A DNA stretch of 64,000 nucleotides from an uncultured bacterium (GCA_963848635.1 CAWKEA010000005.1:175341-239340), one strand, 5' to 3'. Numbered from the stretch's first letter, positions 949 to 59,575 are shown. Notes: a model not told the origin generated them from the letters alone. Made by a program: numbers and translations.

Positions 949-1026
949 GATGCTATTTTAACATGGAAATCGGCTCGGAAACGCGCTTCAAAAAAAGGCA
1001 CCAATGATGGCCTGCGCCCGCTCATT

Positions 1027-1113
1027 CGAGATTTGATCTTGATTTTTGAGATCCGATCTTGTTATTCTGAGATCCGATCTTGATTTGTTCGTACAAGATC
1101 CGATCTCGTTTTA
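1027..1113. repeat. Array of four ~22-bp units each containing AGATCCGATCT (two GATC sites) in the udg/comEC divergent promoter
   Basis: Direct reading: gagatttgatcttga / gagatccgatcttgt / gagatccgatcttga / caagatccgatctcgt. The same 20-mer (19/20 identical) occurs twice inside holB at 11229-11270. Confidence 0.75.
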
Positions 1114-1118
1114 AAAAA

Positions 1119-1165
1119 ACTTTAGAATTATTTTAACTTTTCTTAATGGGCTTTTTGTATACTGC
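1119..1165 (+). promoter_or_regulatory. Conserved promoter module, copy 1 (cTTTAGAATTATTTTAACTTTTCTTAATg..tttttgTATACT) 7 nt upstream of the comEC ATG
   Basis: Near-identical module at 4251-4294 (reverse), 18796-18837, 44334-44378 (reverse) and 58891-58949. Ends in a TATACT/TATAAT -10-like hexamer. Confidence 0.6.
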
Positions 1166-1171
1166 ACGGAT

Positions 1172-3463
1172 ATGCCGATCGACAAGATATTCTATTCTGC
1201 ATGCCTCGGCTTTTCGGCCGGCGTTTTGTGGCGCTCCTTGGCGCGTCTCGACCTTATAGACGTCATATGCATCGGCTCGATATATCTTCTGCTTGTCTTT
1301 CTTTTCTCGATCATTTTAAAGAAAGACTGGGACATCCTTATATCGGTTTTCACGATCGCCCTTGTCCTTGGAATAGCGAGATTCCAGATAGCAGATATAC
1401 AGCCGCCAGCTATCTTTGAAGACCAAGTGAATAAAACCGTTTCTTTTTCTGCCATGATCGTTGACGAACCGGCGAGAAATGCGAGCCAGACGAAATTGAT
1501 CCTCGAGACGAATGGCTCTCTCGAGTCGGCTACAAAAATCACTGGCGATACAAAAGACGTCCCCGACGCTCACACTGAAATAGGCCAAGCAAAAACTGCC
1601 GATATGCGCATTAAAACAAATACAAAGACTGAAAAAGATCCGCTCCGAGTCGGCATCGTCGTCTTTTCAAAAGGAAACGGCGGATTCCATTACGGCGACC
1701 TTGTCAAAGTGACTGGCAAATTAGAAAAGCCCGCTGATTTCATGACAGACCAGGACATGGAATTCGACTACGTGGACTATCTGCGCAAAGACGGGATCTT
1801 TTACACCATTCATAATCCTGATATCAAGATCCTTTCATCCGGTCACGGCAACCCTATCAAGCGCTGGCTCTTCTCGTGGCGGGAAAGATTCGATACAGCC
1901 ATTGATACGGCGATACCCTCGCCCGAATCAACAGTGATCGGTGGCATCATCATCGGCGAACGCTATGCCTTCAGCGAACAATTGCGCCAGATATTCATGG
2001 ATACGGGCACCATCCACATCGTCACTATCGGCGGCTATCATGTCACTCTCGTGGCTGAATGGATCATGAAGATATTCTCGTTCCTACCGAGATTCGCAGG
2101 CTGGGGAGCCGGCATCGTCAGCATATTCCTCTATGTCATCGTCACGGGCGGAGCAGAGACATCAATCCGCGCAGGGATCATGGCGGCTCTCGCCATTTTT
2201 GCCACTGCGACCGGACGCACATACGCTTCCGGCCGAGCGCTCGTCCTCGCCGCGATCGTCATGATATGCATAAATCCGTTCGTCCTCGTCTACGACATAT
2301 CGTTTGATCTGTCGTTCATGGCCACGATCGCCATCATATTCCTTTCGCCGCGTCTCGAGCCGTATCTCGAATGGATCCCATGGAAATGGCTGCGCGGAAT
2401 CGTCACTGTCACCGTTTCGATGTATGCTTTCGCGTTGCCCTTCGTGCTCTATCGCATCGGCAATCTCTCGCTCGTATCACTGCCCGCGAACATGGCTATC
2501 GTGCCCCTCATGCCCGCGACTATGATCGCCGGATTCATCACCGGTTTCGCGGGGCTGATATCGCCCATGCTTGCTGTCATTCCCGGCAAGATCGCTTACA
2601 CGCTCCTCTACTATCAGATCGGCGCCGTGGCTCTCCTTGCAAGATTGCCGTTCGCCGCAGTCGCCATCCAGAATTTTTCACTGCCGATCGTCATCGCCAT
2701 TTACGCGTGCTTCGGTTGTATCTTTTTAAAGGGAGACAGTAAGGCAAGAAAAGCCGCAGGCGCGGCTCTCGGGCCGCAAAGCCTGACGGCCAAGCGTCTT
2801 TCGAAGCTCAATGTTCTCATGCTTTCGATCCCCCTCATCATCACTTTTTCAGCCGCAGGTTTTCTGTATTACAGCCATTACCGGTCAGACCAAGCTTCCT
2901 TGAAAGCCATTCAAAAGCTTCTTTACGAAACAACGACTGCTGACCCTTCGGAAGTATTTTCTTCCACATCGACGGCTCATGTCTTTATGCCGAATCCAAG
3001 AACTGCTTCAAGCGATTGCAAAATAAATGGTGTTTACCCCGACCACACGTGCACACCCGGCGCCGTATTCACCGACGCGACAACAGAGGATGTCTGCGTC
3101 AAAGGCTATACAGCGACCGTCAGAAACGTGTCGGAAAAGACAAAGAAACAGGTATTCGAAGAATACGGCATAGCCTATCCGCAACCGGCTGGCGCGTACG
3201 AGGTCGACCATTTCATTCCCCTGGCTCTTGGCGGGGCGAACGATATCGCCAATCTTTTCCCAGAGGCGGCCGCACCGACGCCGGGATTTCACGAAAAAGA
3301 CGTCGTCGAAGTCTTCTTGCAAGAAGAAGTGTGCTCCGGCCACGCCGCGCTTGCCGCCGCTCAACGGCAAATCTCCACCGATTGGCTGGCAGTCTATGAG
3401 AATATCCCGTTCGAAGACATTCAAAAGATCAAGAATAAGTATGGCGGGAGCGCGGTTCAATAA
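1172..3463 (+). CDS. comEC: ComEC/Rec2 DNA-internalisation channel with a C-terminal HNH-like nuclease domain (no metallo-beta-lactamase domain)
   Basis: 763 aa. N-terminal OB/DUF4131-like region, then a polytopic competence domain. The C-terminal ~150 aa carry 'YEVDHFIPLALGGANDIANLFP' (HNH D-H...N...N signature) where the usual MBL domain would be. Confidence 0.8.
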   Translation: MPIDKIFYSACLGFSAGVLWRSLARLDLIDVICIGSIYLLLVFLFSIILKKDWDILISVFTIALVLGIARFQIADIQPPAIFEDQVNKTVSFSAMIVDEPARNASQTKLILETNGSLESATKITGDTKDVPDAHTEIGQAKTADMRIKTNTKTEKDPLRVGIVVFSKGNGGFHYGDLVKVTGKLEKPADFMTDQDMEFDYVDYLRKDGIFYTIHNPDIKILSSGHGNPIKRWLFSWRERFDTAIDTAIPSPESTVIGGIIIGERYAFSEQLRQIFMDTGTIHIVTIGGYHVTLVAEWIMKIFSFLPRFAGWGAGIVSIFLYVIVTGGAETSIRAGIMAALAIFATATGRTYASGRALVLAAIVMICINPFVLVYDISFDLSFMATIAIIFLSPRLEPYLEWIPWKWLRGIVTVTVSMYAFALPFVLYRIGNLSLVSLPANMAIVPLMPATMIAGFITGFAGLISPMLAVIPGKIAYTLLYYQIGAVALLARLPFAAVAIQNFSLPIVIAIYACFGCIFLKGDSKARKAAGAALGPQSLTAKRLSKLNVLMLSIPLIITFSAAGFLYYSHYRSDQASLKAIQKLLYETTTADPSEVFSSTSTAHVFMPNPRTASSDCKINGVYPDHTCTPGAVFTDATTEDVCVKGYTATVRNVSEKTKKQVFEEYGIAYPQPAGAYEVDHFIPLALGGANDIANLFPEAAAPTPGFHEKDVVEVFLQEEVCSGHAALAAAQRQISTDWLAVYENIPFEDIQKIKNKYGGSAVQ

Positions 3464-3480
3464 TAGAAGTCGGACCCCGA

Positions 3481-3503
3481 GTGTCAAGATGACATCTTGA
3501 CAC
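3481..3503. repeat. REP-like palindrome GTGTCAAGATGACATCTTGACAC (copy 1)
   Basis: Perfect 10-bp inverted arms in the comEC/LTD convergent gap. Same core as seven other loci. Confidence 0.8.
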
Positions 3504-3519
3504 GAAATTTAGATATATC

Positions 3520-4206
3520 TCACTTCGTTTTTTTTAACTTTTTTGAAAAAAACGGTGCGACAAAAGCCGCGCCATTCTCCGCTTTCGGAGTGCCCCCAAT
3601 AGCCGACGAAGTATGCCAGCCGAGCGTCTTTGGATCGCGCTCCATCGTCCTCTTGGTCGCGTCATCGCCCGCAGGCCATCTTGAGCTGGCAACAACCTGA
3701 TCGATCAAGGAACAATACCTGTCAAAGAGCCGGAAGCTGTCGCCGGCATTTTTGATTATGCCGACGAAAAAATTGTCCGCTTTGATGCTCGGCAAAAAAT
3801 CCATTCCGCCTCGTTCCAAAAGATAGAGCCCTCCCGCCGCGACCTTTGCCCCGCTCCGGAAGACGACTTTTATCTTGCCGCTCGCATTCGCGAGCTCCCA
3901 GCCGCCGATCGAAACAGTGCTCGAGGAGACGTTCTTGAGCTCGATCCACTCGTGATTCGAGCTCGTCGCATCGCCCATCCAGGCGATCTCGTTCATGATG
4001 ACAGGAACATGCTCCGGGATCTCTGTCGTGTCGAAAGCGCAGTTCGTGATCGGAGCCGTCGAAGCACTGCTTACGCCCGTCGATGAAGACGCTTGACCGA
4101 CGCTATCCACCAGATTTTTGACGCTGTTATTCCTTGAAAAATAAAAAGCCATCCCGGCAATAGCTAGTACTGTTATACAGGTGAGGATCGGGTGTTCGCT
4201 GAACAT
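3520..4206 (-). CDS. Lamin-tail-domain (LTD) protein with N-terminal membrane anchor
   Basis: 'NEIAWMGDATSSNHEWIELKN' is the LTD signature. N-terminal TM helix. 228 aa. Confidence 0.7.
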   Translation of the reverse strand: MFSEHPILTCITVLAIAGMAFYFSRNNSVKNLVDSVGQASSSTGVSSASTAPITNCAFDTTEIPEHVPVIMNEIAWMGDATSSNHEWIELKNVSSSTVSIGGWELANASGKIKVVFRSGAKVAAGGLYLLERGGMDFLPSIKADNFFVGIIKNAGDSFRLFDRYCSLIDQVVASSRWPAGDDATKRTMERDPKTLGWHTSSAIGGTPKAENGAAFVAPFFSKKLKKTK

Positions 4207-4250: not shown

Positions 4251-4294
4251 AGTATACGAAAAATTCATTAAGAAAAGTTAAAATAATTCTAAAG
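4251..4294 (-). promoter_or_regulatory. Conserved promoter module, copy 2 (reverse orientation), upstream of the LTD gene
   Basis: Reverse complement reads ctttagaattattttaacttttcttaatgaatttttcgTATACTgcgcg, near-identical to copy 1 including the TATACT. Confidence 0.6.
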
Positions 4295-4316
4295 AAACCC
4301 TAAAATGACACATTAC

Positions 4317-4380
4317 ATAGGTCCGCATAGGTCGGACCTTGGTACATTGATATATAGGTCGCTATATAGGTCGGGCCTAT
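4317..4380. repeat. Cluster of four ATAGGTCG(G/C) motifs (two direct, one inverted pair)
   Basis: ataggtccgcataggtcggacc ... tatataggtcgctatataggtcgggcctat. Lies between the 4-gene operon end and the LTD promoter. Confidence 0.6.
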
Positions 4381-4433
4381 GTAAACTAAGAAAAAACCGC
4401 CCCGTTTTTAATGAGGTGGCCTATGATCGTCGG

Positions 4434-4946
4434 TTATTTCGTCGTGACAGAGAAATCGAGAGCTCGAACAGAAAGCTCCTGCGGCAAATAGCGTTTCTCG
4501 ATGCCCCAGCGGTCGCAGTTGCCATGCTCCCATCGCGCGCCAAACGATGATTCCCAACCATGGATGAAGTGAAGCGCACTGACTTTGCCGGAAAGGAATA
4601 CCTTCTCGTAAAAGTCATTCAGGATCGGCGTGCAATATTCTTCCGCCGGATTCTGTCTGTGCCATTCGAGGTAGAGCTCGACCATCTTATCCTCGAAAGG
4701 CATCTGGCTGAAGATATTCCGATGCGATTCGCCGATGAGGATCTCGATGACGCCTTCGAAGACTTTCCGATTGCCCTGAATAGTGCCGACGCCGCCAGTC
4801 GAGATCGGTCCAGACACCATTTCGGCTTTTCCAGGCGTACGGCGAAGGATATCGAGAGCGATCGCCGCCAAATCGACGAACGACTTCGCGTCCTTGAGAG
4901 CATCGTGATCCCGAGGGTTCCAATGTCTGTAATGTTCAATGTTCAT
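4434..4946 (-). CDS. Hypothetical protein, possibly SLOG / nucleoside 2-deoxyribosyltransferase-like (DUF4406-like)
   Basis: 170 aa. 'MVSGPISTGG' resembles the glycine-rich strand-1 loop of NDT-like / DUF4406 proteins. Assignment from memory of the family motif only. Confidence 0.45.
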   Translation of the reverse strand: MNIEHYRHWNPRDHDALKDAKSFVDLAAIALDILRRTPGKAEMVSGPISTGGVGTIQGNRKVFEGVIEILIGESHRNIFSQMPFEDKMVELYLEWHRQNPAEEYCTPILNDFYEKVFLSGKVSALHFIHGWESSFGARWEHGNCDRWGIEKRYLPQELSVRALDFSVTTK

Positions 4947-4993: not shown

Positions 4994-5362
4994 TCATTTT
5001 CCGGATCTGTGTTTTTTCTTGATATCCTTGTATTTTTTTGAGATATCACTTCCGCTGATAGCGCTTGGGGGATATTTCTTTGCGGCCGCCGAGAGCTTGT
5101 CATGAACGATCTCTCGGATATCGACGTTGAGGACGAGCGCCATCGCGATCGCATAGACGAAGACATCCGCCAATTCCTTGACGATCTCTTTCTTTATCCG
5201 TGGATCCTTTACGACCTCTTCGCCGAAGAAATTCTCCCACTGGAAATGTTCCAGCAATTCGGCGGCTTCGATGACGATCGATTTCGCCAAGTCCGCAGGA
5301 GGCTGATCGGACCAACCCCGCTCTGCCATGAATCTTTTGACTTCTTCTCTGGAGTTTTCCAT
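4994..5362 (-). CDS. MazG-like nucleotide pyrophosphohydrolase
   Basis: 122 aa all-alpha protein. 'EAAELLEHFQWE...ELADVFVYAIAMA' matches the MazG/HisE EExxE..D core. Confidence 0.7.
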   Translation of the reverse strand: MENSREEVKRFMAERGWSDQPPADLAKSIVIEAAELLEHFQWENFFGEEVVKDPRIKKEIVKELADVFVYAIAMALVLNVDIREIVHDKLSAAAKKYPPSAISGSDISKKYKDIKKKHRSGK

Positions 5363-5392: not shown

Positions 5393-5767
5393 TCAGCTCT
5401 TAAAAAGATACTTGTTCATTATATATCCATTCTTGTCTTTCTTTTGTTCAAGGAGGATGCCTCCCGCTGATTCGATGACTTTTTTTGAAGGAAAATTAAG
5501 ATCGTCGCAGACGACTGTTATCCTAGCGATGCCAAGATCATGCGCTTGCGTGATCGTATCATTGAATAGTTTTGTTCCAAAGCCTTTGTGCTGAAAATCC
5601 GGATAGATTTCATAATAGATATGGCTCTCAAAACCTTCCGGCATTTCATCGCTTTTTTGCGCAGTGAGCCTTATTTGAGAATAACCGACCGGAATGTCGT
5701 CATCATTGAACAATCTATATACTAACGTATTCCCTTTATTGAGCTTTTCTTTAAATGCAAACCTCAT
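5393..5767 (-). CDS. GNAT family N-acetyltransferase
   Basis: 124 aa from an internal ATG (MRFAFKEK...). 'IYPDFQHKGFGTKLF' is the acetyl-CoA-binding motif A. The upstream part of the listed ORF is antisense to the next gene. Confidence 0.7.
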   Translation of the reverse strand: MRFAFKEKLNKGNTLVYRLFNDDDIPVGYSQIRLTAQKSDEMPEGFESHIYYEIYPDFQHKGFGTKLFNDTITQAHDLGIARITVVCDDLNFPSKKVIESAGGILLEQKKDKNGYIMNKYLFKS

Positions 5768-5769
5768 GG

Positions 5770-6612
5770 CTATATCTTGCACATCAACCGGGCCTCGTTG
5801 AGGATCTTGTCTGCCTTGACGCCTTTGACGCCAGCGTCTTCGAGATATCCGGGATATTTGACGAGATCGCGGCACAGGACGATGCCATTTTGGAAGAGGT
5901 TGCGGCGGATTTCGCCGTCGACGGAAGCGAGAATAGTGAAAGGATAGAGCGAAAGCTCCTCGATGATCTGGTGCAAATTGCCTGAATGCGGATAATTCCA
6001 GCCGATCAAGGGGAGTCCCGCGCATTGGGCGTACTTGATGGCTTCGGAAGTGAATTTGGTATTGGTGATGAGCCAGCCTTTCGAGAGCATGCGCTCGCGG
6101 CCGCCAAAGGTGAATTTACGGCTCGCGAGATCCTCGAAGCGCGCTTTGACGTACAGGGCGACTTTCAGATCGGACTTCAGGCCGAATTCATTGTGGAATT
6201 TAGCTTCGACCATATCGAGCTTGTCGTCTTTCCAGGCGACGACATCAATCTCGTGCTGGACGCAGTGGCCTTCGACGATGACATCTGTCGTCGTCTCGTA
6301 CCCCCAGGCCTTGAAGATTTCGGCCACGAATTTTTCGAACGGATAGCCGTTCGGTCCGAGCTCGGCCAAAGCGCGGCGCATGGAATACCGTGCGGCGGCA
6401 TGGTGCAGATTCGACGAGCGGAGGTAATCAAATGCTCGGGCATAGATGAGAGCCGTCGACATGCCGTCTTTTATTTCGCTCTCCACTCTGTCGACGATCT
6501 CCTCGATGGCTTCTTTCGATCCGCCGGCGGCTCGAAGCGATTCAATGAGCTTGTTCTCCTCGAAAAGCTCTTTTTCGCCGTTCGATTTTGTGACATTGAT
6601 GAGGCGATTCAT
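5770..6612 (-). CDS. ATP-cone domain fused to Mrr-like restriction endonuclease domain
   Basis: The N-terminal 'INVTKSNGEKELFEENKLIESLRAAG' is an ATP-cone. The C-terminal 'GHCVQHEIDVVAWKDDKLDMVEAKF' fits a PD-(D/E)xK Mrr_cat core. Confidence 0.65.
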   Translation of the reverse strand: MNRLINVTKSNGEKELFEENKLIESLRAAGGSKEAIEEIVDRVESEIKDGMSTALIYARAFDYLRSSNLHHAAARYSMRRALAELGPNGYPFEKFVAEIFKAWGYETTTDVIVEGHCVQHEIDVVAWKDDKLDMVEAKFHNEFGLKSDLKVALYVKARFEDLASRKFTFGGRERMLSKGWLITNTKFTSEAIKYAQCAGLPLIGWNYPHSGNLHQIIEELSLYPFTILASVDGEIRRNLFQNGIVLCRDLVKYPGYLEDAGVKGVKADKILNEARLMCKI

Positions 6613-6744: not shown

Positions 6745-6772
6745 CTTGACCTATTTCGAGGCATGCTACAAT
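6745..6772 (+). promoter_or_regulatory. Putative sigma70-type promoter for dnaB (TTGACC-N15-tgcTACAAT), ATG at or near +1
   Basis: Read directly. Extended -10 TGnTACAAT. The ATG at 6779 follows 6 nt later. Confidence 0.35.
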
Positions 6773-6778
6773 CAGTGC

Positions 6779-8194
6779 ATGGCAGAGACGACAAAATCTC
6801 CTTACTACAAGACATCCGACCTGCGCATACCGCCGCAGTCGCTCGAGGCGGAGCGCGCTCTCCTCGGCTCGGTGATGATGCGGCCCGAAGTCATCCACGA
6901 GATCATCGATGTCGTCTCAGACAGGACCTTCTATTCGGATCGTCATCGCCTGATCTGGCTCTCTATGCTCGAGCTCCACCAAAAAGCCACGCCGATCGAC
7001 CTGCTCTCGCTCTCCTCGAGGCTCAAGGAAAAAGAACTGATCGAAACGGTCGGCGGCATGACCTATCTGACCGAATTGGTCCAAAGCGTGCCGTCATCGG
7101 CCAACGCGAAATATTACGCGGAGATAATCCAGAAGAAACAGCTCATGCGCGACCTCATCAGCGCCTCCGAATACATCGGCAATCTCGGCTTCGATCAGGA
7201 TGGAGACCTCGAAGAGACATTGGATAAGGCGGAAAAGAGGATATTTGACGTGACCAATTTTGCCGGCAGTCAGCACAAGTTCATCGCTCTGAAAGACACC
7301 CTCGTCGAAGCATGGGAGCGCCTCGAAAAGCTCCACGAGACTCGCGGCGAATTGCGCGGCATACCGACCGGCTACAAGGAGCTCGACAACAAATTAGCCG
7401 GCTTCCAAAAGTCAGACCTTATCATCCTCGCCGCCCGGCCATCCATGGGAAAAACGTCGCTCGCGCTCGACATCGCCCGCAAGGCGGCCGTCCTCCACAA
7501 TGTATCCGTCGGCATATTCTCCCTGGAAATGAGCTCGCAACAGCTCGTCGACCGCATGCTCGCGGCAGAAGCATCAGTCGACGCCTGGAAATTGCGCACC
7601 GGCCATAACTTGTCCATCGAGCACGATTTCAAGGCGATTCGCGACGCCATGGACCGCCTCTCAAAAGCGCCGATCTATATCGACGACCAGGCGGCCAACA
7701 ATATTCTAAAGATGCGCGCCGTCGCTCGCCGGCTCAAGAGCGAGAAAGGCCTCGGCCTTATCGTCGTGGACTACTTGCAATTGATGGTGCCGACGAATGC
7801 GCGCCACAACGACAACATGGTTCAGCAGGTCACTGAGATTTCGCGCTCGCTCAAACAGCTGGCGCGCGAATTGGAAGTGCCCGTCCTTGCCCTATCACAG
7901 CTGTCTCGCGCCGTCGAACAGCGCGGCGAAGGCGGCCGTCCGAAACTATCCGACTTGCGCGATTCCGGTTCCATCGAGCAGGACGCCGACGTGGTCATGT
8001 TCATCCATCGCGAGGACAAATACAACAAAGACTCGGGCAAGCCGAATATCGCCAATATCATCATCGAAAAGCACCGCAACGGCCCGACAGGCACGGTCGA
8101 ATTGTACTTTGACGAGAAGAAAACTACATTCCTTTCCATCGAAAAGGCCGATTTTGGAGATTTTGACAAAGGCGGGAACGATCAGCCATTTTAA
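6779..8194 (+). CDS. dnaB: Replicative DNA helicase DnaB
   Basis: N-terminal 'ERALLGSVMM' followed by Walker A 'ARPSMGKTSLAL' and the RecA-like core. 471 aa. Confidence 0.9.
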   Translation: MAETTKSPYYKTSDLRIPPQSLEAERALLGSVMMRPEVIHEIIDVVSDRTFYSDRHRLIWLSMLELHQKATPIDLLSLSSRLKEKELIETVGGMTYLTELVQSVPSSANAKYYAEIIQKKQLMRDLISASEYIGNLGFDQDGDLEETLDKAEKRIFDVTNFAGSQHKFIALKDTLVEAWERLEKLHETRGELRGIPTGYKELDNKLAGFQKSDLIILAARPSMGKTSLALDIARKAAVLHNVSVGIFSLEMSSQQLVDRMLAAEASVDAWKLRTGHNLSIEHDFKAIRDAMDRLSKAPIYIDDQAANNILKMRAVARRLKSEKGLGLIVVDYLQLMVPTNARHNDNMVQQVTEISRSLKQLARELEVPVLALSQLSRAVEQRGEGGRPKLSDLRDSGSIEQDADVVMFIHREDKYNKDSGKPNIANIIIEKHRNGPTGTVELYFDEKKTTFLSIEKADFGDFDKGGNDQPF

Positions 8195-8247
8195 TAATGT
8201 AAAATTAAAAAATCAAAAGGTAAAATGACATATTAAAATTTAAAAAT

Positions 8248-8556
8248 ATGAAACTATACAAAAATTGGAGTCTTTGGTACTGGATAATCATTTTTGCTTA
8301 TTGGTTTTTTTATCAAATTCCACTATCCAACACTTTTACTCCTAGTACACTAGGAGTTCCAAATTCAGCAGATTTTGTACTCTACGCAATTTCTGATATT
8401 ATCCCCGCTTTCTATATTTGGTTTATCATAAAAATAATTCTCAGTATTTTAAAGAAGATAAAAACTCAACAAAATAAAGTCAATTATTCTATTCTTTTAG
8501 TTTGTGTTATTCTCTCTAGTGTTCTTATTGCATGGTATGTGTTTAAGTTATTTTAA
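8248..8556 (+). CDS. Hypothetical small membrane protein (cassette cargo)
   Basis: 102 aa, three predicted TM helices, very AT-rich codon usage. Confidence 0.45.
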   Translation: MKLYKNWSLWYWIIIFAYWFFYQIPLSNTFTPSTLGVPNSADFVLYAISDIIPAFYIWFIIKIILSILKKIKTQQNKVNYSILLVCVILSSVLIAWYVFKLF

Positions 8557-8577
8557 GTGTGACATAAGAACATCAAA

Positions 8578-8952
8578 ATGGAAAATGACAGAGAAAAATT
8601 CAAAAATGAATTCAAGAAAAGGTTGTATGCTTGGGTGTTACGACTTGTAAAATTCATTGATTCATTAAAGAAAGATTCAACTTCGTTAGTTATTGGCAAA
8701 CAGTTATTACGAAGCGGAACAAGCATTCTTGCCAACTATATCGAAGCACATTCTGCAAGCTCAAAAAGAGATTTCGGTAACTTTTTCAATCATTCACTTA
8801 AATCTGCAAATGAATCAAAGGTCTGGCTTGCAATAATTCGTGATACTGACAAAGGTAACCAGAGAGAAGTATCGTGGCTCTTGAAAGAGTTGACTGAAAT
8901 ATCAAATATCTTTGCTTCAAGTCTATTAACACTTCGAGGTAAAAAGAAATGA
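8578..8952 (+). CDS. Four-helix-bundle protein (TIGR02436-like; 23S rRNA intervening-sequence protein family)
   Basis: 'LVIGKQLLRSGTSILANYIEAHSASSKRDFGNFFNHSLKSANESKVWL' matches the family signature. Confidence 0.7.
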   Translation: MENDREKFKNEFKKRLYAWVLRLVKFIDSLKKDSTSLVIGKQLLRSGTSILANYIEAHSASSKRDFGNFFNHSLKSANESKVWLAIIRDTDKGNQREVSWLLKELTEISNIFASSLLTLRGKKK

Positions 8953-9012
8953 ATATTTTGTCATTTTACATTGTAATTTTCCCTTTTGATTTTTAATTTT
9001 TACATTCTTATT

Positions 9013-9645
9013 ATGGATCCCGTCAACAAACTCATCGAGCTCTTCTCCGAATTCCCCGGCATCGGGCCGAGGCAGGCGCGGCGGTTCGCGTATTTCATTT
9101 TGACGCGCAACAACGGCTTTTTGGATGATTTTACAAGGAATATCGCGGCGGCAAAGAAATCGTTGCGGGTTTGCTCGATGTGCCAGCGCTTCTTTACTTC
9201 TGCGGAGGGTAGACCTCCGCAGGCCGCAAAGACATGCCCCATCTGCTCTGACGACACGCGCGACCAGGCCAGCCTCATGATCGTCGCACGCGACAGCGAT
9301 TTCGAAGCGATAGAAAAGAGCGGCGTCTATCATGGCCTTTATTTCATCCTCGGCGGCAGTGTGCCGATCCTCGAAAAAGAGCCGGAAAAGAGAGTGCGAT
9401 TGGCGGAGCTCAAAAAGCGAGTGCAAGGCGTTGGTCAAGATGTCATCTTGACAGAGATCATCCTCTCTATGAGCGTCACGCCTGACGGCGAGCATACGGC
9501 AGAAGTCGTCAAAGCTTTCCTTGAAAAGTCGATCGACGCTGAAAAAGTCAAAATAACTGTCTTGGGCAAAGGCCTTTCGACGGGAACGGAGCTGGAGTAT
9601 TCTGATACGGAGACGCTCAAGAATGCGCTCAAAAATCGGGCTTGA
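9013..9645 (+). CDS. recR: Recombination protein RecR
   Basis: 'FPGIGPRQARRFAYF' HhH, C4 zinc finger 'CSMCQ...CPICSD', Toprim 'MIVARDSDFEAIEKSGVYHGLYFILGG'. Confidence 0.9.
   Translation: MDPVNKLIELFSEFPGIGPRQARRFAYFILTRNNGFLDDFTRNIAAAKKSLRVCSMCQRFFTSAEGRPPQAAKTCPICSDDTRDQASLMIVARDSDFEAIEKSGVYHGLYFILGGSVPILEKEPEKRVRLAELKKRVQGVGQDVILTEIILSMSVTPDGEHTAEVVKAFLEKSIDAEKVKITVLGKGLSTGTELEYSDTETLKNALKNRA
9434..9452. repeat. REP-like palindrome GTCAAGATGTCATCTTGAC inside the recR CDS (encodes GQDVILT)
   Basis: Perfect palindrome in-frame within recR. Confidence 0.8.
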
Positions 9646-10976: not shown

Positions 10977-11714
10977 TCAAACGCTGAGCGCCATATATTC
11001 CAAAAGCTGTTTTACGGATGCCGCGCGATCGCGGAGATATGATTCGGTTCGCGCGATGGCGGCAAGAGGAGCGGCGTTCTTTTCGATGCCGCTGTCATGC
11101 AAAAGCTTCGAGAGATCCGCGCAGAATTCGAGAGCGGCGCTTTTCGGCTTTTTGCCGTCAGAGATATCCGCGGATAGCTTGTCGGCAAAGGCGACGCGGC
11201 TAGCCAGCGGTGAAGCGAGAAAATCCCGTACGAGATCCGATCTCGTGGCCGATACAAGATCCGATCTTGTAGTCCGCACCATGTAAAGCCTCGAACGCAC
11301 CGTCGGCAGGAGCGATTCATCCGAAGGTATGACGATGAAAAAAAGCGCGTACCCGTTCGGCTCCTCGAGCATCTTTAAAAGAGCGTTTTGCGCTTCGTGC
11401 GTGATCGAACGGATCACGATGACAAAAAATCTCCGAGCGACATCGCCGCCCCGCGAAGAGAACGGCCGCGTGGCGTGCATATCCTTTAGCTCGCGGGCAT
11501 CGTCGATGGTCAGAATTTCATACGTACGGACGAAGACGTCGGGATTGCCTTGAATTGAGACGCCCTGCTTTTCCTTTAAAAAAGAAAGTATCTCTAGTTG
11601 CGCGTCTTCAGCGCCGACGATGCAGTAGGCATGATGAGAAAGATTTCCGAGCGATTGCGATAGTTCCATGCCAGCTATTGTATCAAATAGTCCCGGCAAA
11701 ATCTGTCTCTTCAA
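10977..11714 (-). CDS. holB: DNA polymerase III delta' subunit-like protein
   Basis: 'THEAQNALLKMLEEPNGYALFFIV' matches the delta'/clamp-loader box. Contains an in-frame tandem 'TRSDLVSATRSDLV' encoded by the AGATCCGATCT repeat. Confidence 0.7.
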   Translation of the reverse strand: MKRQILPGLFDTIAGMELSQSLGNLSHHAYCIVGAEDAQLEILSFLKEKQGVSIQGNPDVFVRTYEILTIDDARELKDMHATRPFSSRGGDVARRFFVIVIRSITHEAQNALLKMLEEPNGYALFFIVIPSDESLLPTVRSRLYMVRTTRSDLVSATRSDLVRDFLASPLASRVAFADKLSADISDGKKPKSAALEFCADLSKLLHDSGIEKNAAPLAAIARTESYLRDRAASVKQLLEYMALSV

Positions 11715-15724: not shown

Positions 15725-16408
15725 TCAAATTATTTCTGGTAATGGCAATGAAAGCACTCCAAGATTTGTCAGATCTGTACCAGATCCACGCTTTAAAAAA
15801 GTTGCGAGCTCCTTCTGGTTTATGTTCTTCTGTATAACTGAATGAAGGTTAAACGATAATCTCCATTTTAATGGATAGATTTGAACAAGTTCATAATCGT
15901 CTTCATATGAGGAAGCTGACAAAATAAATATATTAGCAAAAGGGATTGATATCTTATTTATTGAATCGAAAATTGCATCATAGTCTAATAAATATCCGCC
16001 CTTGCGTGCATATATTAGTAGCTGAAAATAATCAGGATAAGATTTAAATGATTTTTGTTTGATAATATCTTCAATTGTTTTTGAATGTTCTTCAAAGTCA
16101 GTGATCTCAATATTATAAACACCTCGATGATAATTACCGTTGATAATATCAATTTTATAACCATAAATATCTGGGGTCGCCTCTTCGACAACTATTTCCA
16201 GCCAATATTGTGATGGTTGGATTTCGTTGAGACCTAACAAAAAAACTCCAGCAACCCAAGCTTCTCTCTCATGTTTAGTACCATTTGCTAAAATACGCTT
16301 GAGATCGTTCCCACATCTTTCCAATAAAATATCCAGTCTCTTGATTGCAATGGATGGGCTCATCCAAATACCCTTGTAATTTTTTACGTTATATTTTTCA
16401 AAATTCAT
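15725..16408 (-). CDS. Hypothetical protein (AT-rich; start codon overlaps the uvrB stop in ATGA)
   Basis: 227 aa with no recognisable motif. 4-nt overlap with uvrB suggests translational coupling despite foreign composition. Confidence 0.5.
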   Translation of the reverse strand: MNFEKYNVKNYKGIWMSPSIAIKRLDILLERCGNDLKRILANGTKHEREAWVAGVFLLGLNEIQPSQYWLEIVVEEATPDIYGYKIDIINGNYHRGVYNIEITDFEEHSKTIEDIIKQKSFKSYPDYFQLLIYARKGGYLLDYDAIFDSINKISIPFANIFILSASSYEDDYELVQIYPLKWRLSFNLHSVIQKNINQKELATFLKRGSGTDLTNLGVLSLPLPEII

Positions 16409-18738: not shown

Positions 18739-18795
18739 AAAGGATACTATAGCGCATCGCGCATGATGGGGCAATGAAAAAAGATTTTAATCTTT

Positions 18796-18837
18796 CTTTA
18801 GAATTATTTTAACTTTTCTTAATAACTTTTTGATATG
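18796..18837 (+). promoter_or_regulatory. Conserved promoter module, copy 3, upstream of dprA
   Basis: ctttagaattattttaacttttcttaataactttttgaTATGGT. Confidence 0.55.
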
Positions 18838-18861
18838 GTTGTGAGGTTTGATAAAAAACTT

Positions 18862-19755
18862 ATGACGCCCGCAGAAACCATGCATACCATATTCGAGCTT
18901 CGAAAAACCGAATGGCCGGAGCTTTTACTGCAGATGAACGACCCGCCGAAGCGTCTCTACTGCATCGGCCAACAGCCGGCGCGGAAAGCCATATATCTGA
19001 CAGTCATCGGCTCTCGCACGCCGACGGATTATGGGCGCGATTGCGTGCATCGTCTCGTAACAGGGCTCGCGGGATATCCGATCATCATAGTTTCTGGCCT
19101 TGCCGTCGGCATCGATGGACTCGCCCACGAAGCGGCGCTCGAAGCTGGTTTGAAGACAGTCTCCTTCCCAGGCTCCGGATTGAATTGGGACGCCATCTAT
19201 CCGTCCCAGCATCGTGCTTTGGCCGATAGAATAATCAGTGCTGGCGGATGCCTTTTATCTGAATTCAAACATGAGCAAATGGGCACATATTGGTCGTTTC
19301 CCCAGCGCAACCGCCTCATGGCAGGCATCTCTCAAGCCACGCTCATAATAGAGGGCAAGTTGAAGAGCGGGAGCCTCATCACCACAAAACAGGCTTTCGA
19401 CTACAATCGATCCGTTTTAGCGGTGCCGGGTTCCATCGACAACCCTCTTTCCGCTGGGCCAAACATGCTCTTGCATACGCCTTCGGCTCTGGCTGTCAGT
19501 TCCCCGAAAGAGATACTGGAGGAGCTCGGCTTCGAGGCAGACGAATCAGCGCCGAGCATTTCCCCCGAGCGGCTGGCGGCTCTCGATCCGCTTTCGCGCC
19601 GGATAGTCGAGGCCCTCGAAAACAGGCCGACGAACAAAGATGATCTTTGTCGCGATCTCGGCATGCCGATGACAGAGCTCAATCCGCTCATTTCTTTCCT
19701 TGAAATAGACGGCCTCGTGAGGACAAACGGGAACATGGTGAGGAGAGTCCGCTAG
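18862..19755 (+). CDS. dprA: DNA processing protein DprA/Smf
   Basis: 'VSGLAVGIDGLAHEAALEAG' and 'GSLITTKQAFDYNRSVLAVPGSIDNPLSAGPN' match the DprA Rossmann core. ATG chosen downstream of the -10. Confidence 0.85.
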   Translation: MTPAETMHTIFELRKTEWPELLLQMNDPPKRLYCIGQQPARKAIYLTVIGSRTPTDYGRDCVHRLVTGLAGYPIIIVSGLAVGIDGLAHEAALEAGLKTVSFPGSGLNWDAIYPSQHRALADRIISAGGCLLSEFKHEQMGTYWSFPQRNRLMAGISQATLIIEGKLKSGSLITTKQAFDYNRSVLAVPGSIDNPLSAGPNMLLHTPSALAVSSPKEILEELGFEADESAPSISPERLAALDPLSRRIVEALENRPTNKDDLCRDLGMPMTELNPLISFLEIDGLVRTNGNMVRRVR

Positions 19756-44333: not shown

Positions 44334-44378
44334 ATTATAGAAAAACGGTTATTAAGAAAAGTTAAAATAAAAATAAAG
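44334..44378 (-). promoter_or_regulatory. Conserved promoter module, copy 4 (reverse), with TATAAT
   Basis: Reverse complement reads ctttatttttattttaacttttcttaataaccgtttttcTATAAT. Confidence 0.5.
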
Positions 44379-58372: not shown

Positions 58373-58397
58373 CATGTCAAGATGACATCTTGACATG
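58373..58397. repeat. REP-like palindrome CATGTCAAGATGACATCTTGACATG (12-bp arms)
   Basis: Read directly, between lepA and the RRM gene. Confidence 0.8.
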
Positions 58398-58849: not shown

Positions 58850-58870
58850 CGTCAAGATGACATCTTGACG
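58850..58870. repeat. REP-like palindrome CGTCAAGATGACATCTTGACG (upstream flank of the RAYT gene)
   Basis: Perfect 10-bp arms. Confidence 0.8.
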
Positions 58871-58890: not shown

Positions 58891-58949
58891 CTTTTCTTTA
58901 TAATTCTTTATAATTATTTTAATATTTCTTAATAACCGGTCTGTATAAT
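58891..58949 (+). promoter_or_regulatory. Conserved promoter module, copy 5, with TATAAT -10, upstream of the RAYT gene
   Basis: cttttctttataattctttataattattttaatatttcttaataaccggtctgTATAAT. Confidence 0.5.
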
Positions 58950-58976
58950 TTTGTACGAGATGACATCTTGAACATC

Positions 58977-59573: not shown

Positions 59574-59575
59574 CG
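59555..59575. repeat. REP-like palindrome CGTCAAGATGACATCTTGACG overlapping the RAYT stop codon; a degenerate copy sits at 59530-59552
   Basis: Perfect 10-bp arms. Confidence 0.8.

What the first reader, a model, noticed from the sequence alone, without database searches (positions are those of the whole stretch)
1172..4206. ComEC lacks the metallo-beta-lactamase nuclease domain and ends in an HNH-like nuclease domain; LTD protein encoded convergently
Canonical ComEC couples the membrane channel to a C-terminal MBL domain that degrades the non-transforming strand. Here the last ~150 aa carry 'EVDHFIPLALGGANDIANLFP' (HNH catalytic signature) plus a Cys cluster. No HxHxDH MBL motif is present. 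A membrane-anchored lamin-tail-domain protein lies tail-to-tail, and both genes carry the conserved promoter module. This points to an alternative nuclease solution for DNA uptake.
Basis: partly seen in the sequence, partly recalled or inferred. Interest (0 to 1): 0.6.

Follow-up and report, generated by a model that had tools for sequence, protein, structure and literature searches.

The report
DNA-uptake channel fused to HNH nuclease
This small-genome bacterium's DNA-import channel (ComEC) lacks its usual built-in nuclease and carries a different, HNH-type nuclease at the same outer-face position, and related genomes encode either nuclease as a separate membrane-anchored gene beside the channel gene, which suggests how the many ComEC proteins without the usual nuclease process incoming DNA.

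Summary
ORF 1172-3463(+) encodes a 763-aa ComEC. It has three N-terminal membrane helices, an OB fold (DUF4131) and the Competence channel domain, but no metallo-beta-lactamase (MBL) domain or motif. After helix TM11 it ends in a 156-aa domain that models confidently (pLDDT 90) as a beta-beta-alpha fold. D679, H680 and N694 are invariant, and its significant structural neighbours are HNHc proteins.

The fusion is real: about 40 protein clusters at 43-69% identity keep it. It is the fused form of a wider arrangement in Patescibacteria. The domain is usually a separate ~200-aa membrane-anchored protein. In 23 of 36 species loci with enough flanking DNA, its gene is fused to, or within 3 kb of, a short MBL-less comEC that ends after TM10.

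In the conserved locus RecJ-RNaseH-ComEC-SOD(-)-X, X is this HNH protein in some lineages and a membrane-anchored ComEC-type MBL protein in Nomurabacteria-type genomes. That is an in-place nuclease swap.

The lamin-tail-domain (LTD) gene is a recurrent third partner. An identical 29-nt promoter-like block precedes comEC::HNH, the LTD gene and, with one mismatch, dprA.

I found no paper describing it. Verdict: new variant of a known kind, interest about 0.7.

The parts
1018..1110 (+). Four direct copies (spacing 20-26 nt) of a small palindrome, (G/A)AGATC(C/T)GATCT(T/C), immediately upstream of the shared promoter-like block. Possibly an operator array; function unknown.
   Evidence: the repeat finder family D1 and inverted repeats I1-I3. 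Two further copies lie at 11232-11268.
1120..1163 (+). Shared promoter-like module: a 29-nt block (1120-1148), a 9-nt gap, then the -10-like TATACT (1158-1163). The comEC ATG follows only 8 nt later, so the mRNA may be leaderless or nearly so.
   Evidence: Sequence. Exact 29-mer found 3 times in the window, 0 expected. Alignment of the five copies. Not called by the sigma-70 consensus scan.
1172..3463 (+). comEC::HNH gene, 763 aa plus stop codon. Encodes a ComEC channel whose usual C-terminal MBL nuclease is replaced by an HNH-type domain.
   Evidence: ORF. Pfam and NCBIfam. An identical protein is in public data, plus about 40 clusters of full-length homologues.
1178..1387 (+). Three N-terminal membrane helices (aa 3-72) before the OB fold, as in the solved ComEC structure.
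   Evidence: AF2 helices 3-23, 28-48, 53-72. Hydropathy. Three TM helices precede the OB fold in the cryo-EM structure (PMC13539106).
1268..1813 (+). DUF4131 / OB-fold domain (aa 33-214), on the outer face. Contains a low-confidence insert at aa 121-155.
   Evidence: Pfam PF13567, E=1.2e-13. AF2 beta strands between aa 89 and 222. The full-length model gives only weak matches (E 0.015 and above) to OB-fold proteins in the PDB.
1949..2728 (+). Competence (channel) domain, aa 260-519.
   Evidence: Pfam PF03772, E=3.6e-46. TIGR00360, 66.5 bits against a 36.5-bit cut-off.
2738..2797 (+). Cytoplasmic loop (aa 523-542) with 5 Lys/Arg and no Asp/Glu. The short stand-alone ComECs end just inside this loop, a few residues after TM10.
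   Evidence: Charge count. C-termini of short ComECs P0164, P0170, P0182, P0212, P0238.
2798..2872 (+). Membrane helix TM11 (aa 543-567). Corresponds to the N-terminal anchor of the stand-alone HNH proteins.
   Evidence: Hydropathy 2.02. AF2 helix 538-585. The HNH-family profile, including its N-terminal anchor positions, aligns to residues 516-712 of fusion protein P0142. 96 of 110 stand-alone HNH proteins have an N-terminal hydrophobic anchor.
2993..3460 (+). HNH-type (His-Me finger) nuclease domain, aa 608-763, predicted to face outward. Four invariant Cys: 616, 627, 642, 721.
   Evidence: AF2 domain model, pLDDT 90.3, pTM 0.85. BFVD Foldseek E=3.5e-8 to 4.9e-7 to HNHc proteins. Invariant residues. 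Family of 7,924 cluster representatives.
3197..3334 (+). Beta-beta-alpha core (aa 676-721). Strand 1 is YEVDH, with D679-H680 encoded at nt 3206-3211. Strand 2 is NLFPE (N694, E698). The helix EKDVVEVFLQEEVC carries invariant K709, D710 and E713.
   Evidence: Secondary structure of the model. Invariant columns. Alignment to Cas8f-HNH, YEVHHIVPLSQGGADSIKN.
3481..3503 (.). 10-bp-stem palindrome GTGTCAAGATGACATCTTGACAC between the convergent genes. Likely a two-way terminator hairpin. It belongs to a repeat family with 6 copies in the window.
   Evidence: RNA fold -16 kcal/mol, z=-2.45. Six copies, 0 expected.
3520..4206 (-). LTD gene: 228 aa, with an N-terminal membrane helix, a Ser-rich linker and one lamin-tail domain (aa 69-172, nt 3691-4002).
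   Evidence: Pfam PF00932, E=6.1e-12. Homologues sit next to comEC/HNH in 15 other loci.
4251..4294 (-). Second copy of the promoter-like module: the 29-nt block at 4266-4294 and TATACT at 4251-4256, upstream of the LTD gene.
18796..19755 (+). Third copy of the 29-nt block (18796-18824, one mismatch), followed by dprA (18862-19755). DprA is the recombination mediator for incoming single-stranded DNA.
   Evidence: Sequence. Pfam DNA_processg_A E=2.3e-61 and DprA_WH E=4.5e-10.

Best explanation
The gene encodes a DNA-import channel of the ComEC family. The usual outward-facing metallo-beta-lactamase (MBL) nuclease has been replaced by an outward-facing HNH (His-Me finger) nuclease, tethered through the 11th membrane helix.

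Proposed mechanism:
1. Double-stranded DNA reaches the outer face of the membrane, possibly held there by the membrane-anchored LTD protein acting as a DNA receptor. This step is inferred.
2. The HNH domain sits next to the OB fold at the channel mouth and cuts the strand that is not imported, or creates the entry ends. The catalytic set D679/H680/N694 plus an acidic ligand on the helix (D710 or E713) is inferred from conservation and the model.
3. The other strand passes through the Competence-domain channel.
4. Inside the cell it is received by DprA, whose gene carries the same promoter-like block.

This protein is the fused form of a modular system common in Patescibacteria. That system has a 10-helix ComEC that ends in the cytoplasm and a separately encoded single-pass nuclease, of either ComEC-type MBL or this HNH type. 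The nuclease's anchor helix takes the place of TM11.

Shown here: the domain content, the conservation, the predicted topology, the gene linkage and the same-locus MBL/HNH alternation. Inferred: nuclease activity, strand choice, the role of the LTD protein and co-regulation.
For: Architecture: DUF4131 plus Competence, no MBL family or motif.

Real and conserved fusion: an identical protein is in NCBI/ENA, and about 40 clusters of 680-800-aa homologues cover 99-100% of the query. D679, H680, N690, N694, E698, K709, D710, E713 and four Cys are invariant.

Fold: pLDDT 90.3 with a beta-beta-alpha core. There are three significant BFVD matches, two of them to HNHc proteins. All top PDB hits are HNH nucleases, though weak. 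75 of 82 family members give sub-threshold HNH_5 hits.

Topology: 3 + 8 predicted membrane helices, as in the cryo-EM ComEC where the OB and MBL domains are periplasmic. The loop before TM11 has 5 K/R and no D/E. The short ComECs end after TM10. Stand-alone HNH (96/110) and stand-alone MBL (118/119) proteins have an N-terminal anchor.

Linkage: of 80 species loci, 6 are fusions and 27 have comEC nearby. Among the 36 Patescibacteria loci with at least 3 kb on both flanks, 23 are linked and 14 are directly adjacent. None of the 12 non-Patescibacteria loci is linked. Both gene orders occur.

In-place swap: RecJ-RNaseH-ComEC-SOD(-)-HNH occurs in L003, L020, L021, L028, L031 and L036; L045 shows the same order from RNaseH onward, its upstream flank being cut off by the contig end. 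RecJ-RNaseH-ComEC-SOD(-)-MBL occurs in L091 and L096. The fused form in the same context occurs in L007 and L017.

LTD partner: HNH>ComEC>LTD operons in 9 loci, ComEC>LTD>HNH in L073, and a fusion with a convergent LTD gene in the window, L005, L011 and L019.

The same 29-nt block precedes comEC::HNH, the LTD gene and dprA.

Precedent: in S. pneumoniae the membrane-bound nuclease EndA degrades the non-transforming strand. How ComECs without the MBL domain manage this is stated as an open question (PMC8579336; PMC12455585).
Against: There is no biochemical or genetic evidence for activity or for any role in DNA uptake.

The domain fails Pfam's HNH gathering score. The third metal ligand of classical HNH (a His or Asn on the helix) is not identifiable; an acidic residue is only inferred.

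No solved structure matches significantly.

In the full-length model the HNH part is poorly predicted (pLDDT 40-60), so its position at the channel mouth is not modelled.

Thirteen of the 36 well-flanked Patescibacteria loci have the HNH gene away from comEC. The family also occurs in Chloroflexi and others without comEC linkage, so the module is not exclusively a ComEC partner.

The promoter block also precedes an rpiB operon and a transposase-like gene.

The block was not found in the 90 related loci held at the time of that search, and the closest relative L005 shows no equivalent shared block.
Confidence: 0.7

Rival explanations
1. The same machine serves feeding rather than genetics. The HNH nuclease and ComEC import DNA mainly as a nucleotide source for an organism that cannot make nucleotides. 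The imported single strand is degraded inside the cell by RecJ and recycled, not recombined. This differs from the best explanation in purpose, not in molecular mechanism.
For: comEC (split or fused) sits directly after RecJ and RNase H in many loci. Deoxynucleoside kinase and MazG genes lie downstream in L091 and L096. A MazG-like gene and a uracil-DNA glycosylase flank the window locus. A DHH-HNH-RNaseH triad without comEC occurs in L001, L002 and L053. Nucleotide scavenging through the com system has been proposed for these bacteria (PMC10633639).
Against: dprA, which loads RecA on incoming DNA for recombination, carries the same promoter-like block. In the one genetically tractable relative (a Saccharibacterium), comEC was dispensable for growth but required for transformation (PMC10633639).
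Confidence: 0.3
2. The C-terminal domain is a non-catalytic remnant of an HNH fold. It only binds or guides DNA at the channel mouth, while strand separation is driven by the cytoplasmic motor or by another nuclease encoded elsewhere.
For: The classical third HNH residue and the zinc-binding CxxC pairs are absent, and Pfam scores are sub-threshold. An inactive MBL domain retained as a DNA guide has been suggested for S. pneumoniae ComEC (PMC8579336). PLD-family genes, which could encode another nuclease, lie next to LTD or ComEC in L005 and L092.
Against: D679-H680, N694, D710 and E713 are invariant in 41 fusion proteins and 82 family members down to about 45% identity. This pattern is typical of an active site rather than a binding surface. 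The alternation with an MBL nuclease module at the same locus points to an equivalent enzymatic role.
Confidence: 0.12
3. The HNH module is a general secreted or surface nuclease used for defence, host-DNA attack or biofilm DNA turnover. Its closeness to comEC, including the fusion, has no bearing on DNA import.
For: The family is large (7,924 cluster representatives) and mostly stand-alone. It includes members in Chloroflexi, Proteobacteria and phages with no comEC nearby.
Against: Within Patescibacteria, 23 of 36 well-flanked loci link it to comEC. My own estimate of the chance expectation is a few percent: a 20-kb locus is about 2% of a roughly 1-Mb genome. Three different gene orders and a fusion all keep the linkage, and the HNH and ComEC trees group by locus type. 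The fusion places the domain where the ComEC nuclease normally sits.
Confidence: 0.08
4. The fusion is an assembly or frameshift artefact that joins two adjacent genes.
For: The comEC>HNH adjacent arrangement, with abutting reading frames, exists in other lineages (type B loci). A single-base error there could mimic a fusion.
Against: The reading frame is uninterrupted in the window. It is also uninterrupted in about 40 independent protein clusters from different studies and assemblers, with a conserved linker and TM11.
Confidence: 0.01

Closest known systems
Canonical ComEC/Rec2 (B. subtilis and Moorella type: OB fold + Competence domain + C-terminal MBL nuclease)
   Same: It has three membrane helices, then an OB fold, then the Competence channel, with 11 predicted membrane helices in all. 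A soluble nuclease-type domain follows the last helix on the outer face.
   Different: The C-terminal domain is a 156-aa HNH/His-Me finger fold instead of an MBL fold of roughly 250 aa (my estimate from the 288-aa stand-alone MBL proteins). No HxDxDH motif is present. TIGR00361 scores 102 bits against a 190-bit cut-off.
EndA of Streptococcus pneumoniae, the membrane-bound entry nuclease for transformation
   Same: Both are membrane-anchored, outward-facing nucleases. As I recall, EndA is also a beta-beta-alpha-metal finger enzyme; this was not tested here. EndA works with ComEC to degrade the non-imported strand (role as described in PMC8579336 and PMC12455585). The stand-alone Patescibacteria HNH proteins have the same general layout of N-terminal anchor plus nuclease.
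   Different: It belongs to a different family. There is no match to the EndA-type Endonuclease_NS Pfam family, only weak Endonuclea_NS_2 hits in 13 of 82 members. Here the nuclease is fused to, or encoded beside, comEC, and ComEC has no MBL domain at all, whereas pneumococcal ComEC keeps a probably inactive one.
Split ComEC of Nomurabacteria-type Patescibacteria (short ComEC plus a stand-alone anchored MBL protein, both named 'ComEC/Rec2 family' in NCBI records)
   Same: The short ComEC ends after TM10 in the same way. The locus is the same (RecJ-RNaseH-ComEC-SOD(-)-nuclease). The nuclease has the same single-pass N-terminal anchor. These ComEC cores nest inside the fusion clade in the core tree.
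   Different: The nuclease module is MBL, with motifs DVGQGDA, NPDxDH and GHHGS, not HNH, and it is not fused.
HNH endonucleases (Pfam HNH, HNH_4, HNH_5; for example Cas9 and Cas8f HNH domains and phage HNHc proteins)
   Same: It has the D-H dyad at the end of strand 1, the PLxxGG turn, the structural Asn and the following helix. Foldseek gives E=3.5e-8 to 4.9e-7 to HNHc proteins.
   Different: It scores below all Pfam thresholds. It has no CxxC zinc pairs. The helix carries invariant Asp/Glu rather than His/Asn. It has a ~60-aa N-terminal sub-domain and a helical C-terminal extension, four invariant dispersed Cys, and a predicted position outside the cytoplasm.
ComEA, the membrane-anchored HhH DNA receptor of competence systems (functional analogue proposed for the LTD protein)
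   Same: It is a small N-terminally anchored protein encoded with comEC. LTD and duplicate-HhH domains have been proposed as analogous DNA-binding add-ons of secreted DNases (PMC4486849). LTDs accompany extracellular nucleases such as ExeM (PMC6085458).
   Different: It has no HhH or SLBB domain; the only Pfam hit is LTD. DNA binding by bacterial LTDs has not been demonstrated.

Membership tests
ComEC/Rec2 DNA-uptake channel | Competence (PF03772) transmembrane domain | tested here: met
   E=3.6e-46, 158 bits against a 23-bit cut-off, aa 260-519. TIGR00360, 66.5 bits against 36.5.
ComEC/Rec2 DNA-uptake channel | N-terminal OB fold (DUF4131) after three membrane helices | tested here: met
   PF13567, E=1.2e-13. 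AF2 helices 3-72, then beta strands from aa 89 to 222. Weak OB-fold matches in the PDB.
ComEC/Rec2 DNA-uptake channel | C-terminal metallo-beta-lactamase nuclease domain with the HxDxDH motif. Present in about half of ComECs, so it defines the full-length equivalog rather than the family. | tested here: not met
   No Lactamase_B hit at E<=0.1. No such motif. Only 196 aa follow TM11. TIGR00361 equivalog scores 102 bits against a 190-bit cut-off.
ComEC/Rec2 DNA-uptake channel | [quoted passage not shown] | not testable with these tools
   Needs uptake or transformation assays.
HNH / His-Me finger nucleases | Beta-beta-alpha-metal fold | tested here: met
   Domain model pLDDT 90.3, with strands at aa 676-680 and 695-699 and a helix at 708-721. 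BFVD matches at E=3.5e-8, 3.5e-7 and 4.9e-7, TM 0.55-0.68, two of them to HNHc proteins. This is a prediction, not a solved structure.
HNH / His-Me finger nucleases | Catalytic His (general base) preceded by Asp at the end of strand 1, plus a structural Asn | tested here: met
   D679, H680 and N694 are invariant in 41 fusion proteins and 82 family members. They align to the HH...N of Cas8f-HNH.
HNH / His-Me finger nucleases | Metal-binding His or Asn on the helix (the last 'H' of HNH) | tested here: inconclusive
   H707 is not conserved; it is K, Q or R in homologues. Invariant D710 and E713 on the helix are candidates.
HNH / His-Me finger nucleases | Score above the Pfam gathering threshold for an HNH family | tested here: not met
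   HNH 16.5 bits against 21.4; HNH_5 15.5 bits against 27.5. Support across the family is consistent but sub-threshold (75 of 82 members).
HNH / His-Me finger nucleases | Metal-dependent nuclease activity | not testable with these tools
   Needs an enzyme assay.
EndA-type entry nuclease (Endonuclease_NS, DRGH motif) | DRGH-motif non-specific nuclease domain | tested here: not met
   No Endonuclease_NS hit. Only weak Endonuclea_NS_2 hits in 13 of 82 members, best E=0.0021. It may work like EndA, but it is not a member of that family.
Lamin-tail-domain (LTD) proteins | PF00932 domain above threshold | tested here: met
   46.3 bits against 34.3, aa 69-172 of ORF 3520-4206(-). Homologues in L019 and L073 carry three LTDs each.
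ComEA DNA receptor | [quoted passage not shown] | tested here: not met
   The LTD protein has no HhH or SLBB hit. A ComEA-like role is a functional hypothesis only.

The most novel reading that the evidence does not exclude
Patescibacteria build the DNA-entry complex from interchangeable parts. A 10-helix ComEC core recruits a single-pass, membrane-anchored nuclease whose anchor helix completes the channel as 'TM11'. Evolution has swapped that nuclease between an MBL module and an unrelated HNH module at the same chromosomal position, and in this lineage has welded the HNH version onto ComEC. A membrane-anchored lamin-tail-domain protein replaces ComEA as the surface DNA receptor. In this genome the set shares a promoter element with dprA. 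If true, the nuclease step of natural transformation is a modular, replaceable function, and there would be a concrete candidate answer for the roughly half of ComECs that lack an MBL domain.
Probability: 0.4. Interest if true: 0.8.

Novelty: new variant of a known kind. Interest (0 to 1): 0.7.

Why it matters
ComEC is the universal DNA gate of natural transformation. Its MBL domain was shown only recently to be the nuclease that removes the non-imported strand. [quoted passage not shown]

This locus and its relatives offer a specific, testable candidate. It is a conserved outward-facing HNH nuclease that is fused to ComEC, encoded beside it, or found in the exact locus position that a stand-alone ComEC-type MBL occupies in sister lineages.

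The finding also flags a conserved third component, the LTD protein, with no assigned role in competence. It does so in Patescibacteria, a very large and mostly uncultured group whose DNA uptake matters both for their biology (they are reported to lack nucleotide biosynthesis; PMC10633639) and for the genetic tools now being built on their natural competence. Public annotation currently calls the fusion simply 'ComEC/Rec2 family' and the separate protein 'HNH endonuclease', so the link is not visible in databases.

Tried and rejected
- **Hidden MBL domain.** Rejected: no Pfam or NCBIfam hit, no motif, and too little sequence after TM11.
- **Sequence search of the C-terminal domain against the PDB.** Single-sequence and profile searches gave only marginal hits to Cas8f-HNH (E=0.1 and 0.9).
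- **Foldseek of the domain model against the PDB.** No significant hit (best E=0.12), although the top hits were all HNH enzymes.
- **hhalign of the family profile against T4 endonuclease VII.** No alignment resulted, so this is uninformative.
- **Full-length model.** The HNH part was predicted poorly, so it gives no information on how the domain docks. Its PDB search returned only weak OB-fold matches.
- **The window's own contig.** An exact-protein look-up found no record. The cluster look-up gave no accession or organism name.
- **The promoter block in relatives.** It was absent from all 90 loci held at the time, and no equivalent shared block was seen in L005. The sigma-70 consensus scan does not call it a promoter.
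- **'Competence-specific box' reading.** Weakened: the 20-nt core also precedes a 61-codon ORF upstream of rpiB and a Y1-transposase-like gene.
- **Metagenome scan for the stand-alone MBL gene.** It returned only 3 loci. Breadth was instead shown by the protein search.
- **Neighbour-joining trees.** These have no bootstrap support and are used only as rough guides.
- **Assembly artefact.** Rejected.

Full report
**1. What is at the coordinates**

ORF 1172..3463(+) is an uninterrupted 763-codon frame, and ORF 3520..4206(-) is a 228-codon frame that converges on it. Pfam assigns DUF4131 (aa 33-214, E=1.2e-13) and Competence (aa 260-519, E=3.6e-46) to the first protein, and LTD (aa 69-172, 46.3 bits against a 34.3-bit cut-off) to the second.

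No metallo-beta-lactamase (MBL) family is hit. The full-length ComEC/Rec2 equivalog model TIGR00361 reaches 102 bits against a 190-bit cut-off and aligns only to aa 118-464. No HxHxD, [HN]x[HD]xD[HK], GHHG or DxGQG motif exists in the protein.

The string EVDHFIPLALGGANDIANLFP is at aa 677-697. Pfam HNH matches it only at E=0.067 for the whole protein, or 16.5 bits against 21.4 for the isolated domain.

Neighbouring genes:
- a uracil-DNA glycosylase (355-948, -);
- an unassigned 170-aa gene (4434-4946, -);
- a MazG-like gene (4994-5362, -);
- a GNAT-domain ORF (5393-6025, -);
- an ATP-cone/Mrr-like protein (5770-6612, -);
- a DnaB-like ORF by its sequence (6746-8194, +; not scanned against Pfam).

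**2. Is the C-terminal domain an HNH nuclease?**

A search with aa 568-763 returned 478 proteins. Nearly all are 190-230 aa, come from Patescibacteria, and are named 'HNH endonuclease' where a source names them.

A full HMMER pass over 1.84 billion cluster representatives found 7,924 relatives at E<=1e-3 and 5,129 at E<=1e-10. They are overwhelmingly 150-350 aa.

Across 82 members the invariant residues, in full-length numbering, include C627, C642, C721, D679, H680, N690, N694, K709, D710 and E713. C616 is present in at least 90% of members. The same residues, and all four Cys, are invariant in 41 fusion proteins.

Scanned individually, 75 of 82 members hit HNH_5, 40 hit HNH and 23 hit HNH_4. 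All of these hits are below threshold.

An AlphaFold2 model of aa 608-763 built on this alignment has pLDDT 90.3 and pTM 0.85. Strand 1 is YEVDH (aa 676-680), strand 2 is NLFPE (aa 695-699), and the helix EKDVVEVFLQEEVC spans aa 708-721. This is the beta-beta-alpha arrangement of His-Me finger nucleases, with the D-H dyad where the general base sits.

Foldseek against predicted viral structures gave three significant matches (E=3.5e-8, 3.5e-7 and 4.9e-7; TM 0.55-0.68; 30-34% identity). Two of them are annotated 'HNHc domain containing protein', and the remainder of the list is dominated by HNH endonucleases.

Against solved structures nothing is significant (best E=0.12). The top hits are nonetheless Cas8-HNH, an Rhs endonuclease toxin, the Gme HNH nickase and Cas9 HNH domains.

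I conclude that the domain is a divergent member of the HNH/His-Me finger superfamily. What differs from textbook HNH:
- there are no CxxC zinc pairs;
- the last metal ligand is not an obvious His or Asn, since H707 varies among homologues, and invariant D710 and E713 on the helix are the candidates (inference);
- there are four dispersed invariant cysteines.

**3. Which side of the membrane?**

The full-length model (pLDDT 73) predicts three helices before the OB fold and eight after it. The last two are aa 504-531 and 538-585.

The cryo-EM structure of ComEC has 11 membrane helices, three of them before the OB fold, with both the OB fold and the MBL domain periplasmic (PMC13539106).

The loop at aa 523-542 has five Lys/Arg and no acidic residue. 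The hydrophobic stretch at aa 543-567 follows, and the 196-aa tail is net acidic and holds the four Cys.

By the positive-inside rule and by homology of topology, the HNH domain lies outside the cytoplasm, exactly where the MBL domain normally is. This is a prediction. The relative orientation of the HNH domain and the channel is not resolved, because that part of the full-length model has pLDDT of only 40-60.

**4. The fusion is real, and it is one form of a wider system**

The identical protein exists in NCBI/ENA on a 515,952-bp contig. About 40 further clusters of 680-800 aa cover 99-100% of the query at 43-69% identity.

The next tier of homologues are ~490-aa ComECs that cover only the first 67% of the query. 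They end a few residues after TM10, with a short basic tail.

Stand-alone HNH proteins carry an N-terminal hydrophobic anchor in 96 of 110 cases. The family profile, including its anchor positions, aligns to residues 516-712 of a fusion protein.

So the fusion equals a short ComEC with a cytoplasmic C-terminus plus an anchored HNH with a cytoplasmic N-terminus. This join is seamless in topology, and the anchor becomes TM11.

**5. Gene linkage**

A scan of one genome per species returned more than 504 loci encoding relatives of the HNH domain, and the best 80 were fetched with up to 10 kb of flank.

Among the 36 Patescibacteria-labelled loci with at least 3 kb on both sides, 5 are fusions and 18 have comEC within 3 kb, 14 of them directly adjacent. 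That makes 23 of 36. None of the 12 loci from other phyla is linked. My own estimate of the chance expectation is a few percent, because a 20-kb locus is about 2% of a roughly 1-Mb genome.

The arrangements recur, and they group together in rough trees of both the HNH domain and the ComEC core:

| Type | Arrangement | Loci |
|---|---|---|
| A | HNH>ComEC>LTD operon | L016, L022, L023, L024, L026, L027, L032, L040, L070 (L029 lacks a detected LTD) |
| B | ComEC>HNH, abutting frames | L041, L046, L049, L052, L059, L064, L065, L072 |
| C | RecJ>RNaseH>ComEC>SOD(-)>HNH | L003, L020, L021, L028, L031, L036; L045 from RNaseH onward; partial in L030 and L055 |
| D | ComEC::HNH fusion | with convergent LTD: window, L005, L011, L019; in the RecJ-RNaseH...SOD context: L007, L017; other contexts: L009, L012, L013, L015 |
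| E | ComEC>LTD>HNH | L073 |
| F | DHH>HNH>RNaseH, no comEC | L001, L002, L053 |

**6. The in-place swap**

Two short ComECs close to the window's ComEC core, from Nomurabacteria-type genomes, sit in the type-C context. After SOD(-) comes not HNH but a 288-289-aa protein (L091 and L096). This protein has an N-terminal anchor and a Lactamase_B domain (E=2.3e-10, 41.2 bits against a 22.7-bit cut-off). It carries the motifs DVGQGDA, NPDQDH and GHHGS, which I recognise as typical of the ComEC MBL domain.

Such stand-alone proteins are numerous: at least 120 clusters at 64% identity or more. NCBI or JGI name them 'ComEC/Rec2 family competence protein'. Of these, 118 of 119 have the anchor.

Eight of them share their longest-contig length with short ComECs (598563, 85844, 35308, 21633, 17103, 14899, 12568, 8938). 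None of the listed HNH proteins does. No MBL relative occurs in any HNH locus or in the 64-kb window.

So the same locus has the same channel and the same single-pass anchor, and the nuclease is either MBL or HNH. This is the strongest argument that the HNH module does the job of the MBL module.

In the rough ComEC-core tree, these MBL-split ComECs nest within the fusion clade. Module exchange or fission therefore happened within this group. The direction and the number of events are not resolved.

**7. The LTD gene**

Homologues of the window's LTD protein occur in 15 of the fetched comEC/HNH loci, always next to comEC or HNH. They carry one to three LTDs, and the L019 and L073 proteins have three LTDs plus an InlB-type repeat. 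In the closest relative (L005, 65% identity) the LTD gene is again convergent, with one inserted gene between.

Bacterial LTDs are known mainly as add-ons to extracellular or membrane-associated hydrolases, including nucleases such as ExeM. In ExeM, removing the LTD lowered activity in vitro (PMC6085458). LTD and duplicate-HhH domains have been proposed as analogous DNA-binding modules of secreted DNases (PMC4486849).

A ComEA-like DNA-receptor role is therefore a reasonable hypothesis, but it is only an inference. The protein has no HhH domain.

**8. The promoter module**

The 29-nt block CTTTAGAATTATTTTAACTTTTCTTAATG occurs at 1120-1148(+), at 4266-4294(-) and, with one mismatch, at 18796-18824(+). 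None is expected by chance. About 10 nt downstream come TATACT, TATACT and TATGGT respectively.

The third copy precedes dprA (Pfam DNA_processg_A, E=2.3e-61), a core competence gene.

The 20-nt core also precedes a 61-codon ORF upstream of rpiB (44351-44370, -) and a weak Y1-transposase-like gene (58914-58933, +).

The sigma-70 consensus scan does not score it as a promoter. It was not found in the 90 related loci held at that point, and L005 shows no equivalent shared block.

The comEC ATG lies 8 nt after the TATACT, which would give a leaderless or nearly leaderless mRNA (inference).

**9. Mechanism and rivals**

The best-supported reading (confidence about 0.7) is that the HNH domain is the outward-facing nuclease of this ComEC. 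It would process incoming duplex DNA at the channel mouth, in the way the MBL domain does in canonical ComEC and EndA does in pneumococcus.

Whether the main purpose is transformation or nucleotide scavenging is open. The RecJ, RNase H, deoxynucleoside-kinase and MazG neighbours favour salvage. The dprA link, and the Saccharibacteria genetics in which comEC is dispensable for growth but required for transformation (PMC10633639), favour transformation.

A non-catalytic guide role is unlikely given the invariant active-site-like residues. A role unrelated to ComEC is unlikely given the linkage statistics and the fusion. An assembly artefact is excluded.

**10. Novelty**

Searches of the paper library for ComEC together with HNH, His-Me finger, lamin tail or Patescibacteria found no description of this architecture or linkage. 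The survey of ComEC domain architectures does not mention HNH or LTD (PMC6299819). Recent structural papers still list MBL-less ComECs as unexplained.

The proteins themselves are in public databases under generic names. I rate this a new variant of a known kind: the known ComEC system with a different nuclease module and an unrecognised partner. It bears directly on a question that the field states as open.

Noticed in passing
window 18796-19755 (also 44351-44370 and 58914-58933): The promoter-like block shared by comEC::HNH and the LTD gene also precedes dprA (29 nt, one mismatch). Its 20-nt core precedes a 61-codon ORF upstream of rpiB and a Y1-transposase-like gene. That makes five copies in 64 kb, each followed about 10 nt later by a -10-like hexamer (TATACT, TATACT, TATGGT, TATAAT, TATAAT).
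   Followed up: partly
window 3483-3501, 9434-9452, 42965-42983, 58376-58394, 58851-58869, 59556-59574: The 19-nt palindrome GTCAAGATGACATCTTGAC occurs six times (0 expected). One copy lies between comEC::HNH and the LTD gene. Two copies flank ORF 58968-59573, which has a weak IS200-like Y1 transposase hit (E=8.8e-4). This looks like a REP element with its REP-associated transposase.
   Followed up: partly
window 1018-1110 and 11232-11268; window 4313-4384: Arrays of short palindromes lie just upstream of the promoter-like blocks. There are four copies of AGATC(C/T)GATCT before comEC, with two more at 11232-11268. A different palindrome (TAGGTCGGACCT-like, 3-4 copies) precedes the LTD gene. 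They could be operators or small repeat elements.
   Followed up: partly
L091 8274-9140; L096 6001-6870: Stand-alone, N-terminally anchored ComEC-type MBL proteins (~288 aa) are widespread in Nomurabacteria-type genomes. Motif II is NPDxDH in all 120 proteins examined (Asn where characterised ComECs have His), the substitution also noted for the possibly inactive pneumococcal domain. Whether they are active is unknown.
   Followed up: partly
L005 10472-12010; L092 7425-8657: A two-domain PLD-family (PLDc_2) gene lies next to the LTD gene in L005 and converges on a short comEC in L092. The L092 locus has neither an HNH nor an MBL gene within 6 kb. This could be a third type of associated phosphodiesterase or nuclease, or merely a lipid enzyme.
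   Followed up: no
L001 4853-7071; L002 3072-5339; L053 2709-5003: In some genomes the HNH gene is not next to comEC. Instead it sits between a DHH/DHHA1 phosphoesterase gene, with a 4-nt overlap, and an RNase H gene. This is another link to nucleic-acid breakdown.
   Followed up: no
window 5770-6612 (-): A 280-aa protein combines an ATP-cone domain, an Mrr-type restriction-endonuclease fold and an AF1548-like C-terminal domain. This is an unusual pairing of a nucleotide-sensing domain with a nuclease fold. Its reading frame overlaps that of the GNAT-domain ORF 5393-6025.
   Followed up: no
window 16405-18774 (-): The ORF resembles UvrB by its sequence (not scanned against any family library). 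At 789 aa it is longer than I would expect for UvrB, and it contains an internal low-complexity insert with a duplicated KDDKNLADFSKSSK segment.
   Followed up: no
window 59584-62684 (-): Two adjacent surface-protein genes were seen. One encodes a 307-aa protein with a prepilin-type N-terminal methylation motif plus a Laminin_G_3 domain. The other encodes a 726-aa protein with three Laminin_G_3 repeats. They are candidate type IV pilus-associated adhesins, and pili normally cooperate with ComEC in DNA uptake.
   Followed up: no
window 8001-9000: There is a marked drop in G+C (0.31-0.33, against about 0.5 in the surrounding DNA) just after the DnaB-like gene. No tRNA or Rfam family lies there.
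   Followed up: no
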